DNA of 64,000 nucleotides from Escherichia phage W115: sequence record ON286974, one strand, 5' to 3'. Both the position numbers and the translations under genes were made by a program. Within the stretch, counting starts at the first letter, position 1. Every line of letters begins with the position of its first letter. Below, piece by piece: positions 38,512-44,418 of this stretch. A model generated the notes under the pieces. The model ran no database searches, was not told where the DNA came from, and saw nothing but the letters and a program-made list of their open reading frames with translations.

Positions 38512-40755
38512 TTACAGCTTGCAAGATGAGCACTCGCTAGCGTCTTCCGTACCATCAGCACCGTCGCGAACGTTCGCATAATACAGGGTTTTCAGACCGT
38601 AATATTGAGCAAACAACATATCATCTAACACATCAGCAATATCGACTTTACCAGTCTTATAAGTGCTTGGATCGTATGATGTATTGGAACTAATCGCCTG
38701 ATCCACAAACTTCTGCATGATCGCTGCCAGTGTCAGATAAGGCTTGTTACCTTTCTTGATCAGTGTCCAAAGCAGGTCAATAACATCAGCATTATTCTCT
38801 ACGTTCGGAATAACCTGATTAAATTGCCCTTCTTTCGATCCTTTAACCGATACAATCCCGCGAGGCGGTTCAATACCATTTGTGCTGTTAGACACCTGAG
38901 AGGACGACTCACAAGGCATCAGAGCCGAAAGCGTACTATTACGAATGCCATATTTTTTCAGGTCTTCGCGCAGTTCTTCCCAATCCATCTCATACACCGG
39001 ATCAACCAGTTCATCTACTGTCTTTTTGTACCAGTCGATAGGCAGTTCACCGCGACCATAACGTGTTTCGTGCATCAGTTCGCAAGCACCCTTCTCTTTT
39101 GCTAGCTGCACACTAGCTTTAATCAGAGCATATTGCAAGCGTTCAAACGTTTTATGCGTAAACTCGCTAGCGTCTTCATATGTGAAGAAATTATCCGCGA
39201 GATACGATGCAAAGTTAGTCACCCCAACACCCAGAGAGCGACGTTTTTTGGCTGTCAGAGCTTGCTCTACAGGATAATCCTGATAATCTAACAGGTTGTC
39301 AAGTGCACGCACCATAACCATAGCAATGCGTTCTACTTCTTCCATGTTTTCGATATCGAAATTACCTAAAACATATGCTGCCAAAGTACATAGGCTGATC
39401 TCTGAATCATCACGACCCATCGGTTTTGTTGGCAGAGCAATTTCACAACACAGGTTAGATTGTTTAATCGGTGCTACATTACGAATAAACGCCCCGTGAT
39501 TGTTCATGTTGTCTGTGAACGTTGGGTAGATTCGACCAGTGTTAAAACGTTCAATTGCCACCGCTAAAAACAGGTCTTCGGCTTTAACACGAGTTTTACG
39601 AACACTCGGATCTTTTTCCAGTTTTTCGTAAAGCTGACGGAAACCTTCCTCATCTCGGAAGTATAGATCCCACAACAAGCCACCTGCAACATCTGGACTA
39701 AACAGAGTAATGTAATCCCGTTTAAGGAATCGCTCTACCATCAGGTTATTAATCTGTACGCCGTAATCAAGATGACGAATGCGGTTATCTTCTACCCCTT
39801 TGTTATTCTTTAACACAATCAGACTTTCAAACTCTAAATGCCACATTGGGTAATAGAGAGTCGCCGCCCCGCCACGAATACCGCCTTGTGAGCATGACTT
39901 AACGGCAGTCTGAAAATGTTTCCAGAATGGGATAACGCCAGTATGACGAACTTCACCATGCCCGATCTTAGATCCTTCCGCGCGAATCATGCCAGCGTTG
40001 ATACCGATACCAGCACGCTTGCTAATATACTTAATGATTGCATTTGCGGTTTCATTAATACCCTGCAATGAGTCATCACTTTCAATCACCACACACGAAC
40101 TAAATTGGCGTGTTGGGGTACGCACACCTGCCATAATCGGAGTAGGCAGAGAGATTTGCTTATTCGCAACAGCATTATAAAAATCAATCACATGTTCAAG
40201 TCGATTTTCTGTCTCTTCTTGATGCAAGCACATACCGATCAGCATATACGCAAATTGCGGTGTTTCGATGATTTTCTTAGTGCTGCGATCCTGAACAAGA
40301 TATTTCTCTTTTAACTGCATCGCACCAGCATAGGTCATTTTAAAATCAAGTTTATGGTCGATGAATTTCTCCAGATATTCCACTTCTTCACGGGAATATT
40401 TTTGCAGAATTTCGCGATCATATTTTCCGGTTTCAATATTACGCTCAATATGGCTGTAAAAATCAATCGGTTGGAATTGACCGTATACTGATTTACGAAG
40501 CGCGAACATTGCAAGGTTACTTGCTACATATTGATAATCGGGTGTTTCGACAGTAATGTTATCTGCTGCGACCTTAATCAATACTTTCTGGATATCATTG
40601 GTAGACATACCTTCTGTCAGAAGTGGTTCAACCATATCAAACAATTCATATGGATCAACGTTATGACCTTCGGCTGCCGCTTCCAGAATTTTCATTACTT
40701 TTTCTTTTTCAAACGGAACAGTCAGACCGGAAGACTTAACAACATTTTTAATCAT
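38512..40755 (-). CDS. nrdA: ribonucleotide reductase large subunit
   Basis: 747 aa; ATP-cone N-terminus, catalytic Cys/Asn/Glu context (NLCCEI), C-terminal redox Cys pair; T4 NrdA-like length. Confidence 0.9.
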   Translation of the reverse strand: MIKNVVKSSGLTVPFEKEKVMKILEAAAEGHNVDPYELFDMVEPLLTEGMSTNDIQKVLIKVAADNITVETPDYQYVASNLAMFALRKSVYGQFQPIDFYSHIERNIETGKYDREILQKYSREEVEYLEKFIDHKLDFKMTYAGAMQLKEKYLVQDRSTKKIIETPQFAYMLIGMCLHQEETENRLEHVIDFYNAVANKQISLPTPIMAGVRTPTRQFSSCVVIESDDSLQGINETANAIIKYISKRAGIGINAGMIRAEGSKIGHGEVRHTGVIPFWKHFQTAVKSCSQGGIRGGAATLYYPMWHLEFESLIVLKNNKGVEDNRIRHLDYGVQINNLMVERFLKRDYITLFSPDVAGGLLWDLYFRDEEGFRQLYEKLEKDPSVRKTRVKAEDLFLAVAIERFNTGRIYPTFTDNMNNHGAFIRNVAPIKQSNLCCEIALPTKPMGRDDSEISLCTLAAYVLGNFDIENMEEVERIAMVMVRALDNLLDYQDYPVEQALTAKKRRSLGVGVTNFASYLADNFFTYEDASEFTHKTFERLQYALIKASVQLAKEKGACELMHETRYGRGELPIDWYKKTVDELVDPVYEMDWEELREDLKKYGIRNSTLSALMPCESSSQVSNSTNGIEPPRGIVSVKGSKEGQFNQVIPNVENNADVIDLLWTLIKKGNKPYLTLAAIMQKFVDQAISSNTSYDPSTYKTGKVDIADVLDDMLFAQYYGLKTLYYANVRDGADGTEDASECSSCKL

Positions 40756-40799
40756 ATTACCTCACTTCATATTTTAGCAGGAACAAGTTTATCCTCCAT

Positions 40800-40824
40800 A
40801 TTGGGGGCTTTCGCCCCCTTTGTT
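40800..40824. terminator. GC hairpin GGGGGCTTTCGCCCCC between td and nrdA
   Basis: Perfect 6-bp stem with 4-nt loop; the same element (reverse complement) recurs after gene 34 at about 52291. Confidence 0.4.
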
Positions 40825-42044
40825 TATACTGCCATTTGAGCGGTGATGGCTGGATGGCTTTGATAGTTGTGAATTTTAAAGTCTTTCGGAGTTTTTGTCA
40901 ATACCTCATCTAAAGATTTAAATTCCGGCAACTCAATTGTTGGTTTATCAAACGGAACACGGCTTAACTGTTCCATGACTTGATCAAAATGGTTTTTGTA
41001 AATGTGAGTATCTCCACCAGAGAAAATCAGTTCTCCTACCTCAAGATCACACATTTTCGCTATGATGTGAGTTAACAGCGCATAGCTGGCAACATTAAAG
41101 GGCAAGCCCAAAAAGCTGTCTACGCTTCGCTGAAACCACATACAAGACAGTTTACCTTCATTGACGTAGAATTGTACGAACGGATGACATACACCCAATA
41201 CAGCATTATGTGTTCCTTGTACGTTCCATGAGTCAATAATGATCCGGCGATCCGTTGGATTGTTTTTAATTTGTTCGATCACATTTTGTAACTGGTCTTC
41301 CCAAATCTTCGGGCGATAGACATATTCTTCATCGTCTTTAGTGCTTGATGTGTCTACGTCCATACTAACAAACATCGTGGTATCCGGTGCTATAATATCC
41401 CCACCCAGATAATCACTATCAAGCAGATAACCGAAATAACCGTCATCTACCCATTCCTGGAATCCCCACAAGCAATATGCATCATTAACAAAATTAGATT
41501 GAGTCTTCCAGTGGTCTGCTACCAGAATATAATCAAACTCTTCATAACGCATACCACGCCAGATAGCACATAAACGGTCTTCTGTTTCATTGGTTGGCGT
41601 AAAGTCTTCTACCCACGGGTGTTTAAATGTATGTGTATATTTGCTCTTAACGCGCTTAATTTTGATTTCACCGTGTGGATGAATCGGTTTGCGTCGCCAT
41701 GCCATGCCATACATATTGCCGACATTATAACCATTGAATCGCAAAGGATTCTTTTCTTTCATATCAAGACAGTTGCCGCGCCAAATGTCGAAGGCTTCTT
41801 CGTCAAACTTACCGCGTGTAATTTCCTGTAAGCGACGGCGGTCAAGTGATCCCTCCATAAACCATAGCAACTCGCCAATTATAGAGGCTGTAGCCATCTT
41901 TTTGGTGGTCAGTAATGGAAAACCCTTGCTTAAATCAATTCGCATCTCTGCGCCGAATTTAGAGAGCGTACCTACCCCCGTGCGGTCTTCACGAGGCCAG
42001 CCATTATCAAGAACATCACGCAACAGTTTCAAATATTCTTTCAT
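40824..42044 (-). CDS. td: thymidylate synthase with a roughly 130 aa internal insertion
   Basis: 406 aa; ThyA blocks (DRTGVGT, LLTTKK, YGMAWRR, ...SWNV..., HPFVQFYV, LSC, RSVDSFLGLPFNVASYALL, C-terminal HPAITAQMAV) plus an extra segment between the YG.QWR block and the DQL..VI..IK helix. Confidence 0.85.
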   Translation of the reverse strand: MKEYLKLLRDVLDNGWPREDRTGVGTLSKFGAEMRIDLSKGFPLLTTKKMATASIIGELLWFMEGSLDRRRLQEITRGKFDEEAFDIWRGNCLDMKEKNPLRFNGYNVGNMYGMAWRRKPIHPHGEIKIKRVKSKYTHTFKHPWVEDFTPTNETEDRLCAIWRGMRYEEFDYILVADHWKTQSNFVNDAYCLWGFQEWVDDGYFGYLLDSDYLGGDIIAPDTTMFVSMDVDTSSTKDDEEYVYRPKIWEDQLQNVIEQIKNNPTDRRIIIDSWNVQGTHNAVLGVCHPFVQFYVNEGKLSCMWFQRSVDSFLGLPFNVASYALLTHIIAKMCDLEVGELIFSGGDTHIYKNHFDQVMEQLSRVPFDKPTIELPEFKSLDEVLTKTPKDFKIHNYQSHPAITAQMAV

Positions 42045-42285
42045 CCCACATCACCTTTTTCTTGTTGATTGCTTTCTTACGCAGTTTTGCTACTGTCTCG
42101 TCAATATCGATAAAGACAACGCCACGGTCGAATACAGTTGCAGGTCTTGAGATATCGCTATTTTCTTGCACAGGAAGCCATGATGCGCTCGCTTCATCAT
42201 AGAGATATTGTAAACCGTAATAATCTACGGCTACTGCGTAGTTTTCACTGGTAGCCGTCCATAATTGAATAATACCGACTTTCAT
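42016..42285 (-). CDS. hypothetical protein
   Basis: Track ORF 42016..42312 trimmed to the first ATG. Confidence 0.4.
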   Translation of the reverse strand: MKVGIIQLWTATSENYAVAVDYYGLQYLYDEASASWLPVQENSDISRPATVFDRGVVFIDIDETVAKLRKKAINKKKVMWDERIFETVA

Positions 42286-42378
42286 TATTGTTCCCGTCCG
42301 CAATGTAAGCACCGACTACCAGCAAACATCAAAGATTCACCACAATGTTTGCACTCATAATCTGTCAGAATTTTCATG

Positions 42379-42948
42379 TTACGCCTTCTTACGTTCTAAA
42401 ATTTGTTCGCTGATCAGGTAATCATCAAGGAAGTAATTATGTTCTTCTTTGGTTGCAAAGTCAAAATATAATTCCTGAATCATTTCCTTAGAGATTCCAA
42501 CATCATATTCAAATGGATCGTTGACCCCTGAACGTTGAACATACGTTAACACAATACGGTCCGCAAAGTCAACCGCTTTTTCAATCAGGGAAGGTCCGCC
42601 GATAACACTTACCAAACCTTGCGTTTTCTCTAGGGCTTTTAACAGATCCTTCAATTCAATTCCAGTATACACATCAGGTTGGTCGCCGTTTTTAGCTTTC
42701 GGTTCTGGCTTGCTGGTATCGGTACTAATAACCACATTCAAACGTCCCCAAAGTGCTTTAGGCAGACTTTCAAAGGTATTACGTCCCATTACTACCGCAG
42801 CAAAATCAACCTCGCCAATAGTGCGGATTTTAAAGTTTTCCATATCTTTTTTGATTGGACGCCCCCACGGTAAACCGCCTTTAAAACCAAAAGCCCAATT
42901 TTCATCCGACATTTTAGTGTCACCAATCGCAAATACACATTGAATCAT
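42379..42948 (-). CDS. frd: dihydrofolate reductase
   Basis: 189 aa; DHFR pattern (GLPWGRP...DF, VVMGRNTFESLP, VISTD); N-terminus MIQCVF.. like T4 Frd. Confidence 0.85.
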   Translation of the reverse strand: MIQCVFAIGDTKMSDENWAFGFKGGLPWGRPIKKDMENFKIRTIGEVDFAAVVMGRNTFESLPKALWGRLNVVISTDTSKPEPKAKNGDQPDVYTGIELKDLLKALEKTQGLVSVIGGPSLIEKAVDFADRIVLTYVQRSGVNDPFEYDVGISKEMIQELYFDFATKEEHNYFLDDYLISEQILERKKA

Positions 42949-43321: not shown

Positions 43322-43355
43322 TACATTATACACTATTGCGTTACGCTGTCAACTC
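43322..43355 (-). promoter_or_regulatory. sigma70-like early promoter 18 (TTGACA-16-TATAAT)
   Basis: Read on the minus strand upstream of the 42964..43293 ORF. Confidence 0.5.
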
Positions 43356-44357
43356 TTTTTCAAAAGTTTTTACGATATACATGATAGTGCTCAATTCAGA
43401 CGGCGCGACTGTTTCTGTGTAGCCATCCGGCATATCTTCTTTTGAGATATAGGAAGTTTTACCTTTCATCGCTTCCTTGATCTTGTTCTCTAATTCTAAG
43501 ATCTTTTGACCGTCTTGTAAAGTCAATTCATAAAAGATCTCGTGGTCGAATTTAGATTTCGCTGATTGGTTTCTCATTCGTTCTTGTGTTGTTAAATTGG
43601 TTATTCCAAATTTGATTCCATAAAAACATGATTTTTTAATTAGTTTTTGAATGTATAGTGTTCCGTGTTTTAAAGTGTTGTATCCAAATCTAGCACAACT
43701 TGAACATCTATTTCCTGATAGAAACCCGTTAATTGTTGGTGTAAATGTATGACCATTACAACATTGCAATTTTAATTTTGTTGTATTTCCTTTCCATTCA
43801 CCTATAAATCCATTGAATAGTATGTTTTCTTTATCAAAGATTGGTTTAATTCTAATAATATAGTCATCTTTGGGTATTGATTTTAATTCTTTCAGTTTTA
43901 ACCGGTAGCATTCTTGGCAGCGTCTTCCATTTTTGAAATTGTTAATTGTTGGTGTAAATGTATGTCCATTACAACATTGTAGATTTAATTTTGTCGATGA
44001 CCTTTTCCATTCACCTATAAATCCATTGAATAGTATGTTTTCTTTATCAAAGATTGGAGTTAACTTATGTAGATGTTCATCTTCCGAAAAAGATTTCATC
44101 CTTCCATTCTTTATGTCTGCACATTTATGACAGCGATTTCCAGCGTTGAAATTGTTAATTGTTATTGTAAATGTATGACCATTACAACATTGCAATTTTA
44201 ATTTTGTTGTATTTCCTTTCCATTCACCTATAAATCCAATAAACTTTATATTTTCTTTAAAGAATGTTGGTTTTAATTCTTCGTAGTAATTCACTGGAGA
44301 TTTTGAATTGTGAGCTTTTCTAACCCATTCAATCTCATGTGCTTGACGTACTAACAT
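43341..44357 (-). CDS. protein with three tandem Cys/His zinc-ribbon repeats and a C-terminal T5orf172/GIY-YIG-like region
   Basis: Trimmed to ATG with GGAGGA RBS; three roughly 70-aa repeats (GFIGEWKGNTTKLKLQCCNGHTFT.TINNF..GNRC..C); C-terminus GTLYIQKL...FYGIKFGITNL...R resembles T5orf172. Confidence 0.5.
   Translation of the reverse strand: MLVRQAHEIEWVRKAHNSKSPVNYYEELKPTFFKENIKFIGFIGEWKGNTTKLKLQCCNGHTFTITINNFNAGNRCHKCADIKNGRMKSFSEDEHLHKLTPIFDKENILFNGFIGEWKRSSTKLNLQCCNGHTFTPTINNFKNGRRCQECYRLKLKELKSIPKDDYIIRIKPIFDKENILFNGFIGEWKGNTTKLKLQCCNGHTFTPTINGFLSGNRCSSCARFGYNTLKHGTLYIQKLIKKSCFYGIKFGITNLTTQERMRNQSAKSKFDHEIFYELTLQDGQKILELENKIKEAMKGKTSYISKEDMPDGYTETVAPSELSTIMYIVKTFEKELTA
43730..44275. 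repeat. three tandem copies of a roughly 210-bp coding repeat (high nucleotide identity)
   Basis: Near-identical blocks starting near 43730, 43937 and 44150 (aattgttggtgtaaatgtatgaccattacaacattgcaattttaattttgttg...), by eye. Confidence 0.7.
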
Positions 44358-44384
44358 AATTTTATCCTCCGTTGTTTCTATGGG

Positions 44385-44418
44385 TGCATTATACATTACC
44401 ACATCAGCATGTCAATAC
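44385..44418 (-). promoter_or_regulatory. sigma70-like early promoter 19 (TTGACA-16-TATAAT)
   Basis: Read on the minus strand upstream of the zinc-ribbon repeat gene. Confidence 0.5.

What the first reader, a model, noticed from the sequence alone, without database searches (positions are those of the whole stretch)
41301..41690. Thymidylate synthase carries an in-frame insertion of about 130 aa between conserved blocks
The td ORF is 406 aa against about 264-286 aa for E. coli ThyA and T4 Td. Conserved ThyA blocks are intact and co-linear, but an extra segment of about 130 residues lies after the YG.QWR block and before the helix DQLQNVIEQIK..P.DRR. The insert has no stop codons and ordinary protein composition, so it is not the group I intron known in T4 td, and it lacks intein terminal signatures (no N-terminal Cys/Ser, no C-terminal HN). 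Inference: a novel surface domain grafted onto TS, possibly for interaction or regulation.
Basis: seen in the sequence. Interest (0 to 1): 0.55.

Follow-up and report, generated by a model that had tools for sequence, protein, structure and literature searches.

The report
Dead homing-endonuclease module inside phage thymidylate synthase
The thymidylate synthase of this RB49-like E. coli phage carries a 132-residue extra domain in one surface loop. The domain is the eroded, almost certainly inactive remnant of a homing-endonuclease-like module that inserted in frame into phage thymidylate synthase genes with no intron or intein to remove it.

Summary
The td ORF (window 40824..42044, minus strand, 406 aa) is a complete ThyA with all catalytic residues. 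It has one contiguous 132-aa block (residues 118-249, window 41298..41693) in a loop that is 5-33 aa long in ordinary relatives.

The block is not an artefact: all 58 full-length Krischvirus matches have it. It is not an intron (no Rfam match) and not an intein (no Hint domain, no terminal signatures). It folds confidently as a separate domain.

It is not a new fold invented for TS. It is homologous to larger (245-284 aa) inserts at the same site in other phage TS, and through them to free-standing phage proteins filed as 'HNH endonuclease' that carry AP2, NUMOD or HTH DNA-binding tails (hhalign probability 97%).

One full-length insert sits in a TS whose core is 86% identical to an insert-less TS. 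The module therefore entered this site more than once, which is homing-like behaviour.

The copy in the window has lost both flanking modules and every near-invariant polar or Cys residue of the family. It has become acidic (net charge -10) and evolves about five times faster than the enzyme core, though still under constraint (dN/dS 0.23).

Best reading: a fossil mobile-element domain tolerated on an active TS. A new role for it is possible but unsupported.

The parts
40824..42044 (-). td gene: 406-aa thymidylate synthase (ThyA type), stop codon included
   Evidence: ORF list. PF00303 283.9 bits. TIGR03284 284 bits against a cut-off of 108. 96-98% nucleotide identity to td of Krischvirus phages.
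41694..42044 (-). N-terminal ThyA core, residues 1-117, ending in the block NMYGMAWR
   Evidence: Aligns to E. coli ThyA 1-82 and onward. dN/dS 0.04 among 13 Krischvirus td genes.
41298..41693 (-). In-frame insert, residues 118-249: degenerate homing-endonuclease-like module
   Evidence: Sits in a loop of 5-33 aa in ordinary TS. tblastn E=1e-11 and 5e-7 to larger inserts at the same site in phiKp_21 and Vibrio phage D69 TS. hhalign probability 97%, E=1.1e-10 to the core of the free-standing family. All 10 significant hits among 1.84 billion representatives are TS; the 8 new ones scanned with Pfam have the PF00303 match split at this same site. AF2 of the insert alone: pLDDT 93.1, pTM 0.85.
41655..41693 (-). 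Insert, first long beta strand (residues 118-130, RKPIHPHGEIKIK): outgoing arm of a two-strand stalk
   Evidence: DSSP on the AF2 models. The border motif is conserved in other insert-bearing TS.
41445..41588 (-). Insert, helical part (residues 153-200). It corresponds to the family motif W..M..RCY...VC..W..F.NF, with the RCY...Y loop deleted and the R, C, Y and C residues replaced.
   Evidence: Column-by-column comparison with 76 free-standing homologs. Alignments. Helices 153-171, 177-189 and 195-200.
41364..41429 (-). Insert, beta-beta remnant (residues 206-227, YLLDSDYLGGDIIAPDTTMFVS). It corresponds to the family signature QLDKD..GNKIYSPDTCxF....N, with K->S, Y->I, S->A, C->T and N->D.
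   Evidence: Strands 206-209 and 224-227.
41295..41324 (-). Insert, returning long beta strand (residues 241-250, YVYRPKIWED), running into the ThyA helix DQLQNVIEQIK
   Evidence: DSSP. The YRPKI(Y/W) border is conserved in nearly all insert-bearing TS.
40827..41297 (-). C-terminal ThyA core, residues 250-406, with R266/R267, catalytic Cys286-His287, R306-S307-D309, N317 and H347/Y349
   Evidence: Aligns to E. coli ThyA 110-264. These columns are invariant in alignment A1 and conserved in A3.
42379..42948 (-). Context: frd (dihydrofolate reductase-like ORF) upstream of td
   Evidence: ORF list. The DHFR-td-nrdA order is seen in related contigs. The ORF itself was not scanned against Pfam; it was recognised by eye.
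38512..40755 (-). Context: nrdA (ribonucleotide reductase large subunit) downstream of td
   Evidence: ORF list. Synteny in related contigs.

Best explanation
The td gene is translated as one 406-aa polypeptide: a normal, active ThyA core with a 132-aa domain projecting from one surface loop. The loop lies between the YG.QWR block and the DQL... helix (E. coli ThyA residues about 100-108).

The domain is a fossil. Its ancestor was a complete homing-endonuclease-like module with three parts: an N-terminal beta domain, a Cys-rich core with the signature R-C-Y...V-C...QLDKD...Y-S-P..T-C.F....N, and a C-terminal helix-turn-helix-like tail. This is the kind of module that also exists as free-standing phage genes with AP2 or NUMOD tails. 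It inserted in frame into this loop of phage thymidylate synthase genes, with no intron or intein to remove it.

In the T4-like lineage that includes Krischvirus the module was trimmed to its hydrophobic core. It lost every signature polar or Cys residue and both flanking modules, and it turned acidic. It can no longer bind or cut DNA. It persists because it folds on its own without disturbing the enzyme, and because a clean deletion is rare.

Shown here: the anatomy; the homology; the loss of signature residues; an independent insertion at the same site in another TS lineage; relaxed but real purifying selection; and the absence of intron or intein features.

Inferred: that the ancestor was an active nuclease that homed; that the present domain has no activity; and that TS is active.
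For: Anatomy and TS integrity.

Present in 58/58 full-length Krischvirus td matches.

Homologous larger inserts at the same site. Klebsiella phage phiKp_21 (517 aa) and Vibrio phage D69 (477 aa) match at tblastn E=1e-11 and 5e-7 with conserved borders. Further TS of 401-613 aa were found. All 10 significant hits of the insert in 1.84 billion representatives are TS; the 8 new ones scanned with Pfam have the PF00303 match split at this site.

Link to the free-standing family. The profile search gives about 76 free-standing proteins of about 160-350 aa. 22 of 76 carry AP2 and 4 carry I-HmuI NUMOD-like domains. The full phiKp_21 insert hits phrog_2081 'HNH endonuclease' at 1.7e-33. A reduced-insert profile against the free-standing core profile gives hhalign probability 97%, E=1.1e-10.

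Decay. The family-invariant or near-invariant residues R, C, Y, C, K, Y, S, C, N are E, E, F, A, S, I, A, T, D in the window. The N- and C-terminal modules are deleted. Net charge is -10 and pI 4.8, against +2 to +14 for full-length TS inserts and a median of +5 for free-standing proteins.

Mobility of the family. P0096 (284-aa insert) has a TS core 86% identical to insert-less P0184 but only about 52-59% identical to the other insert-bearing TS compared. NJ bootstrap is 50/50 for the main insert clade without P0096 and 0/50 with it.

Vertical retention of the relic. Reduced inserts occur in three T4-like lineages with frd-td-nrdA synteny.

Selection. dN/dS is 0.23 in the insert and 0.04 in the N core. 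Non-synonymous:synonymous variants are 20:19 against 8:40 (Fisher p=0.001) and below the neutral expectation (p=0.0007).

Folding. pLDDT is 93.9 for the whole protein and 93.1 for the insert alone.

No intron. No intein domain.

Against: The relic is not drifting freely. It shows dN/dS 0.23, has a conserved block DAYCLWGFQEWVD...APDT..F across lineages with only about 62-68% core identity, and gets a very confident predicted fold. This fits a retained role as well as a mere folding constraint.

Within Krischvirus there is no presence/absence polymorphism, so nothing shows recent mobility.

Most insert-bearing TS form one clade. The case for repeated insertion therefore rests mainly on one sequence (P0096), plus the very divergent D69 and P0020 ThyA-like proteins.
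Confidence: 0.65

Rival explanations
1. Exapted domain. The module descends from the same endonuclease-like ancestor but now has a new, selected role on TS. Candidates are docking TS to other proteins of the phage nucleotide-synthesis or replication machinery, acting as an acidic decoy, or modulating access to the folate site.
For: Purifying selection is present (dN/dS 0.23, below neutral at p=0.0007). The domain is retained, with a conserved sequence block, across T4-like lineages whose TS cores are only 62-68% identical. It is confidently folded. There was a systematic shift to an acidic surface in the reduced clade (net charge -11 to 0).
Against: No partner, motif or genomic association points to any specific function. 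The conserved residues are mostly hydrophobic or aromatic, as expected for a fold that merely must not misfold inside an essential enzyme. The domain evolves about five times faster than the core and tolerates a 4-aa indel. Close T4-like relatives work with a 5-aa loop.
Confidence: 0.25
2. Still-active homing endonuclease. The TS-embedded domain cuts insert-less td alleles of co-infecting phages and drives its own inheritance.
For: The family to which it belongs has homing-endonuclease-like architecture and entered the same TS site at least twice. A divergent sequence patch in some Krischvirus td genes starts within 5 codons of the insert junction, which superficially resembles a co-conversion tract.
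Against: All nine near-invariant signature residues of the family are replaced. Both putative DNA-binding modules are deleted. Net charge is -10. All 58 Krischvirus matches already carry the insert. A single-sequence search no longer detects any free-standing member.
Confidence: 0.03
3. Removed intervening sequence. The block is an intein, or an in-frame group I intron as in T4 td, and is absent from the mature enzyme.
For: td is a classic host gene for mobile introns (T4 td/I-TevI; PMC2988022). Inteins are in-frame and often carry endonuclease domains (PMC3943268).
Against: There is no Rfam family at E<=1 in 40500..42400. No Hint/intein Pfam domain is found in the window protein or in the full-length relatives. 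The block starts with R-K-P and ends with I-W-E before D, not Cys/Ser...His-Asn followed by Cys/Ser/Thr. The borders are conserved as protein sequence and are predicted to be long beta strands.
Confidence: 0.02
4. Ordinary lineage-specific loop expansion or assembly artefact, unrelated to mobile elements.
For: This TS loop is naturally variable (5-33 aa in relatives).
Against: The same block appears in 58 independently sequenced genomes. Homology to a large free-standing protein family is significant. The block is four times longer than the longest ordinary loop seen.
Confidence: 0.02

Closest known systems
Inteins carrying homing-endonuclease domains (e.g. PI-SceI; HNH-containing phage inteins)
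   Same: A selfish endonuclease module is inserted in frame into a conserved, essential gene. It is translated together with the host protein. It is found sporadically in different host-gene lineages at one site and decays after fixation (mini-inteins) (PMC3943268; bioRxiv 10.1101/2025.01.02.630785).
   Different: There is no Hint splicing domain and there are no splice-junction residues, either here or in the full-length relatives. The module must stay in the mature enzyme. It sits in a tolerant surface loop rather than at a catalytic motif.
Free-standing phage homing endonucleases that split or abut host genes (T4 mobE; the 'genes in pieces' nrdA of Aeromonas phage Aeh1, cited from memory)
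   Same: The relatives of the insert are free-standing phage genes with a nuclease-like core plus AP2, NUMOD or HTH tails. A contig related to this phage group even shows nrdA split by a canonical HNH gene.
   Different: Here the module is fused on both sides, in frame, to the host protein. The gene is neither split nor flanked by the element.
T4 td group I intron with I-TevI
   Same: Same host gene, and the same logic of a mobile endonuclease colonising td (PMC2988022).
   Different: It uses a different insertion site, different chemistry (an RNA-spliced intron) and a different nuclease family (GIY-YIG). Nothing intron-like is present here.
Defunct or decaying homing endonucleases (e.g. I-TevIII in T4 nrdB)
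   Same: It is at the end stage of the homing-endonuclease life cycle: a fixed element with inactivating changes and deletions (PMC2790892; PMC13619312).
   Different: Those relics are dispensable ORFs inside introns. This one is part of an enzyme and is therefore held under folding constraint (dN/dS 0.23).
PacI-type His-Me finger (HNH) nucleases
   Different: The match is weak and is not reproduced by Foldseek or by sequence profiles. The window copy lacks the Tyr, Lys, Asn and Cys residues.
Known length variation in ThyA loops (50-aa small-domain insert of Lactobacillus casei TS; the two short 'eukaryotic inserts' of human TS, cited from memory)
   Same: Surface loops of the ThyA small-domain region tolerate insertions without loss of activity. 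From memory, the loop used here is the one that carries the second eukaryotic insert.
   Different: Those inserts are 8-50 aa of TS-specific sequence. The L. casei insert lies before the YG.QWR block, not after it. Neither is a foreign, autonomously folding domain.

Membership tests
Thymidylate synthase ThyA (PF00303 / TIGR03284) | Whole-protein score above the curated cut-offs | tested here: met
   PF00303 283.9 bits (cut-off 24.3). TIGR03284 284 bits (cut-off 108.35).
Thymidylate synthase ThyA (PF00303 / TIGR03284) | Catalytic and substrate-binding residues: Cys146-His147, Arg21, Arg126'/127', Arg166, Ser167, Asp169, Asn177, His207, Tyr209 (E. coli numbering, from knowledge) | tested here: met
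   Window C286-H287, R21, R266/R267, R306, S307, D309, N317, H347 and Y349 fall in the conserved columns. Asn317 (not Asp) argues for dUMP rather than dCMP as substrate (from knowledge).
Thymidylate synthase ThyA (PF00303 / TIGR03284) | dTMP-forming activity | not testable with these tools
   Needs an enzyme assay.
Intein | Hint splicing domain with N-terminal Cys/Ser/Ala and C-terminal His-Asn followed by Cys/Ser/Thr | tested here: not met
   No Hint/intein Pfam hit at E<=1. The insert begins RKPIHPHG and ends RPKIWE|DQL.
Group I intron (as in T4 td) | Match to a group I intron covariance model; interruption of the reading frame or of exon continuity | tested here: not met
   0 Rfam matches at E<=1 in 40500..42400, both strands. 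The frame is open, and the borders and interior are conserved at protein level.
Phage homing-endonuclease-like family (PHROGs 2081/953/374, annotated 'HNH endonuclease') | Significant sequence similarity of the core | tested here: met
   Directly weak: phrog_2081 E=0.067, and no free-standing hit with the single sequence. Met through profiles: hhalign probability 97%, E=1.1e-10. Also met through the homologous phiKp_21 insert (tblastn 1e-11; phrog_2081 1.7e-33).
Phage homing-endonuclease-like family (PHROGs 2081/953/374, annotated 'HNH endonuclease') | Family-invariant or near-invariant residues (R, K, D, D, Y, S, N and three Cys in 76-100% of 76 members) | tested here: not met
   The window has E, S, I, A and D at the R, K, Y, S and N positions, and E, A and T at the three Cys positions. 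Only the two Asp of LD.D and the hydrophobic W/W/F/L/F positions remain.
Phage homing-endonuclease-like family (PHROGs 2081/953/374, annotated 'HNH endonuclease') | Attached DNA-binding module (AP2, NUMOD-like or HTH) and basic charge | tested here: not met
   The C-terminal part present in the full-length TS inserts is deleted here. Net charge is -10 against a family median of +5.
Phage homing-endonuclease-like family (PHROGs 2081/953/374, annotated 'HNH endonuclease') | Site-specific DNA cleavage | not testable with these tools
   No member of this family was found with experimental data in the searches made.
His-Me finger / HNH nuclease fold | Beta-beta-alpha-metal motif recognisable by structure or profile | tested here: inconclusive
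Mobile (homing) element | The same element at the same site in unrelated host-gene lineages | tested here: met
   Met for the family, not for the window copy. The P0096 core is 86% identical to insert-less P0184 and about 52-59% to the other insert-bearing TS compared, with bootstrap 50/50. The module is also present in the divergent ThyA-like proteins of phage D69 and contig L015.
Mobile (homing) element | Presence/absence polymorphism among close relatives | tested here: not met
   58 of 58 full-length Krischvirus matches carry it. Among jumbo phages, insert-bearing and insert-less TS differ by more than 35% in the core.

The most novel reading that the evidence does not exclude
The full-length relatives (phiKp_21/KP13-7/UE-S1, P0086-P0096, D69) may represent a class of mobile element not yet described. 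It would be a complete homing endonuclease that lives in frame inside an essential enzyme with no intron or intein. It would be expressed as a domain of thymidylate synthase, cut insert-less td alleles and copy itself into them. On this reading the Krischvirus block is the domesticated end-product of that life cycle, and the mosaic td segments that start at its junction are scars of past homing.
Probability: 0.25. Interest if true: 0.8.

Novelty: new variant of a known kind. Interest (0 to 1): 0.55.

Why it matters
Homing endonucleases are thought to enter conserved genes only when sheltered by a self-splicing intron or intein; otherwise they sit between genes (PMC3943268). This td gene and its relatives show a third way. 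The module is simply tolerated as an extra domain in a permissive loop of the host enzyme, and it can then erode into a harmless or reusable protein domain.

That gives a concrete, testable series running from full-length to trimmed forms. It can be used to study how selfish DNA becomes ordinary protein sequence.

It also explains why a well-known phage group (RB49-like phages) has an oversized TS. It flags mis-annotations: the phiKp_21 TS is called 'hypothetical protein' and the D69 TS-like gene is called 'HNH endonuclease'. Finally, it identifies a loop of ThyA that accepts inserts of up to about 280 aa, which is useful for protein engineering.

For the window itself the practical consequence is modest: td is an ordinary functional gene carrying a fossil.

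Tried and rejected
1. Intron: the Rfam scan at E<=1 over the gene found nothing.

2. Intein: no Hint domain and no junction residues.

3. Artefact: rejected by 58 independent genomes.

4. Pfam, NCBIfam and PHROGs on the insert alone: no Pfam family; phrog_2081 only at E=0.067; NCBIfam (run on the whole Td) named only ThyA families. Recognition needed the larger TS inserts as stepping stones.

5. Assigning the parent module to HNH:
- hhalign of the family profile against I-HmuI (sequence recalled from memory) gave nothing.
- A core-only profile against PDB sequences gave nothing.
- The whole-family profile against PDB hit only the AP2 tails.
- Foldseek against the PDB gave nothing.
- The AFDB library was unavailable.
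The fold assignment is therefore left open.

6. A 'missing link' split gene. Contig L015 shows a ThyA-like N-fragment ending in a stop just inside the insert's first strand. This is followed by an ORF fusing the module to the ThyA-like C-half. A 10-N scaffold gap lies between them, so this is not usable evidence.

7. My early note that the insert occupies the L. casei small-domain site was wrong. That insert precedes the YG.QWR block; this one follows it.

8. A link to the unexplained cytosine modification of some Krischvirus phages (PMC13390438). Td keeps Asn317, and both modified (SAP) and unmodified (TB34) phages carry the same kind of td, so I dropped it.

9. Literature searches for a prior description of this insert found none. 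The RB49 genome paper itself (PMC135041) is not held.
Full report
**1. What is there**

The window is a Krischvirus (RB49/Phi1/JSE-like T4-related coliphage). The td region is 96-98% identical at nucleotide level to 46 records, and 58 records match full length.

td is the ORF at 40824..42044 on the minus strand and encodes 406 aa. It lies between a DHFR-like ORF (42379..42948) and nrdA (38512..40755).

Pfam PF00303 matches in two pieces. NCBIfam TIGR03284 scores 284 bits against a cut-off of 108.

Against solved structures, residues 1-82 align to E. coli ThyA 1-82 and residues 250-406 to ThyA 110-264. T4 Td aligns 250-406 to its residues 120-286.

In a 73-sequence alignment the stretch between the conserved WR (R117) and DQ (D250) is 132 aa here. 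It is 5-33 aa in 53 ordinary relatives.

The catalytic Cys286-His287, R21, R266/R267, R306, S307, D309, N317, H347 and Y349 all sit in conserved columns. The block is residues 118-249, window 41298..41693.

**2. What it is not**

- It is not an assembly artefact. All 58 full-length Krischvirus matches carry it, as 1221-1236 nt genes.
- It is not a group I intron. There is no Rfam match at E<=1.
- It is not an intein. There is no Hint domain in this protein or in its longer relatives, and the termini are RKP... and ...IWE|DQL.
- It is translated. Among 13 Krischvirus td genes the insert has dN/dS 0.23, with 20 non-synonymous against 19 synonymous variants. This is significantly below the neutral expectation (p=0.0007) and significantly above the N-terminal core (8:40, Fisher p=0.001; core dN/dS 0.04).

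**3. Where it comes from**

A tblastn of the insert against 50,697 phage records found two significant matches outside Krischvirus: E=1e-11 in Klebsiella phage phiKp_21 and 5e-7 in Vibrio phage D69.

Both hits lie inside thymidylate-synthase(-like) genes of 517 and 477 aa. These carry larger inserts at exactly the same place, with conserved borders (MYG.xWR..P.P.G..I.R ... YRPKIY.DQLQ).

The wider protein searches show a whole set of TS of 401-613 aa with inserts of 127-284 aa at this site.

In an exhaustive HMMER scan of 1.84 billion representative proteins, all 10 significant matches of the insert are TS. The 8 new ones, when scanned with Pfam, have the PF00303 match split at the same profile position.

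A profile of three TS inserts also retrieves about 76 free-standing phage and metagenome proteins of about 160-350 aa.
- 22 of them have a C-terminal AP2 domain, 4 have an I-HmuI NUMOD-like domain, and others have HTH-like tails.
- They belong to PHROGs 953, 374 and 2081, all labelled 'HNH endonuclease'. The full phiKp_21 insert hits phrog_2081 at 1.7e-33.
- A profile of only the reduced inserts (Krischvirus, P0005-7, P0085) aligns to a profile of only the free-standing cores with hhalign probability 97%, E=1.1e-10, over 72 columns.
- Within the 64-kb window the td insert is the only strong and recurrent match to that family; a few short, marginal hits (E 0.013-0.04, 13-19 aa) fall elsewhere.

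**4. State of the copy in the window**

The full-length TS inserts have three parts: an N-terminal beta-rich domain ending in GVGYLG, a core, and a C-terminal segment (LNGGG...Y.S...L....G..R) that resembles the helix-turn-helix tails of the free-standing proteins. That resemblance is by eye and is supported only for the free-standing members.

The Krischvirus insert keeps only the core, and the RCY...Y loop inside the core is also deleted.

In the 76 free-standing proteins the columns R, C, Y / C / L-D-K-D / Y-S / C / N are 76-100% conserved. The full-length TS inserts keep most of these: LDKD 100%, Y and S 100%, N 80%. The window has E, E, F / A / L-D-S-D / I-A / T / D. Only the hydrophobic W, W, F, L, F, the G, P and T positions and the two Asp of LD.D survive.

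Charge changed as well. The window insert has net charge -10 and pI 4.8. The reduced clade as a whole ranges from -11 to 0. Full-length TS inserts are +2 to +14, and free-standing proteins have a median of +5.

AlphaFold2 predicts the whole Td at pLDDT 93.9 and pTM 0.91, and the insert alone at pLDDT 93.1 and pTM 0.85, with the same secondary structure in both. There are two long strands (118-130 and 241-250) that I read as a stalk. They carry a head of four helices (153-200) and a beta hairpin (206-209, 224-227).

The head is therefore a compact, independently folding remnant with every candidate functional residue removed.

**5. Was the ancestor a mobile nuclease?**

Architecture and annotation say homing endonuclease, but I could not confirm the nuclease fold.
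- Foldseek against the PDB, a core-only profile against PDB sequences, Pfam HNH models and hhalign against I-HmuI all gave nothing.
- PacI is a His-Me finger that lacks the catalytic His and uses a Tyr, and it has a helical DNA-binding part before the motif (PMC5714182). The family's invariant Tyr, Lys, Asp, Asn and three Cys would fit such an enzyme. This is a lead, not a result.

Mobility has better support. In a neighbour-joining tree of TS cores the insert-bearing proteins form one clade (bootstrap 50/50), with one exception, P0096. Its core is 86% identical to the insert-less P0184 and only about 52-59% identical to the other insert-bearing TS compared. Yet it has a 284-aa module exactly between WR.W and IDQ, replacing a 33-aa loop. 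The same module also sits at this loop in the very divergent ThyA-like proteins of phage D69 and of contig L015. The module has therefore entered this site more than once.

Within the main clade the reduced forms group together: Krischvirus 132/136 aa, P0005-7 137-140 aa, P0085 127 aa. They lie in T4-like contigs with frd-td-nrdA synteny. The trimming is therefore old, and the relic has been inherited vertically since.

**6. How it most likely works now**

td makes one polypeptide. The ThyA core does the chemistry. The insert is a passenger domain on a stalk, emerging from the loop after the YG.QWR block (E. coli ThyA about 100-108).

I consider it a fossil held under folding constraint (65%). 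An exapted role is the main rival (25%), supported only by the moderate purifying selection and long retention. A live endonuclease, an intein or intron, and an artefact are each very unlikely.

**7. Comparison with known systems and novelty**

The nearest analogues are:
- inteins with endonuclease domains, which are in frame but spliced;
- free-standing endonucleases that split genes;
- the T4 td intron with I-TevI, which uses the same host gene but a different mechanism;
- decayed endonucleases such as I-TevIII.

None of these describes an endonuclease-like module that remains as a domain of the mature host enzyme. I found no description of this td insert in the searchable literature, although the sequence has been public since RB49 was sequenced.

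I rate it a new variant of a known kind. The copy in the window is a dead relic in an otherwise ordinary gene. The family it reveals is the interesting part.

**8. Limits**

- The tree is neighbour-joining on 270 columns.
- The case for repeated insertion rests chiefly on one metagenomic protein.
- dN/dS rests on about 40 variable codons.
- The nuclease activity of any family member is untested.

Noticed in passing
window 41007..41285 (td codons 254-346); loci L005, L006, L007, L012: The td segment just after the insert exists in at least three divergent alleles among Krischvirus phages. They are 75-78% identical at protein level, with dS about 1 against the window. In GEC-3S, JSE and KFS-EC the divergent patch runs from codon 254 to 346. 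In GoldenSnicker it runs from codon 254 to about 290. All start within 5 codons of the insert junction, while codons 202-253 are identical. The donor was not found. This could be co-conversion scars or a homology barrier at the insert.
   Followed up: partly
window about 41530/41531 (between td codons 171 and 172): There is a 12-nt indel polymorphism (four residues, SEYN) among Krischvirus td genes (406-aa against 410-aa forms). It lies exactly in the scar where the family's RCY...Y loop was deleted.
   Followed up: partly
window 43341..44402 (minus strand): A 353-aa ORF upstream of frd has three tandem repeats of about 65 aa. They match the CapR homology domain (PF21817, E=1e-22) and treble-clef zinc-finger models, and are followed by a C-terminal domain of unknown type. 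An older paper lists an RB49 ORF (RB49ORF239c) as a weak DUF723 match; whether that is this ORF was not checked.
   Followed up: partly
L019:4689-7840: In a T4-like metagenome contig that carries a reduced-insert td (P0006), nrdA is split into two ORFs by a 237-aa canonical HNH gene (motif HHVIP...N...H) with a NUMOD-like tail. This is the 'genes in pieces' arrangement known from Aeromonas phage Aeh1 (from memory). The intervening protein does not belong to the td-insert family.
   Followed up: partly
L015:2450-4152: A divergent ThyA-like gene appears split at the same loop. A 128-aa N-fragment ends in a stop just inside what would be the insert's first strand. It is followed by an ORF fusing the endonuclease-like module to the ThyA-like C-half. 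A 10-N scaffold gap lies between them, so the split cannot be trusted.
   Followed up: yes
L001:2455-4008; L002:2638-4071: Annotation problems in public records. The 517-aa TS of Klebsiella phage phiKp_21 is labelled 'hypothetical protein'. The 477-aa TS-like gene of Vibrio phage D69 is labelled 'HNH endonuclease', evidently because of the embedded module.
   Followed up: yes
whole td gene, window 40824..42044: A 2026 paper (PMC13390438) reports that some Krischvirus phages carry glucosylated hydroxymethyl-cytosine although the genus lacks dCMP hydroxymethylase homologs. Td is a thymidylate-synthase-superfamily enzyme, but it keeps Asn317 (dUMP-type). It is also of the same insert-bearing kind (same length and match score) in the modified (SAP) and unmodified (TB34) phages, so no link is apparent.
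   Followed up: partly
window 42016..42044: The td start codon overlaps the end of the upstream 98-aa ORF (42016..42312) by 29 nt. A perfect 6-bp GC hairpin (GGGGGC TTTC GCCCCC, 40803..40818) lies between td and nrdA.
   Followed up: no
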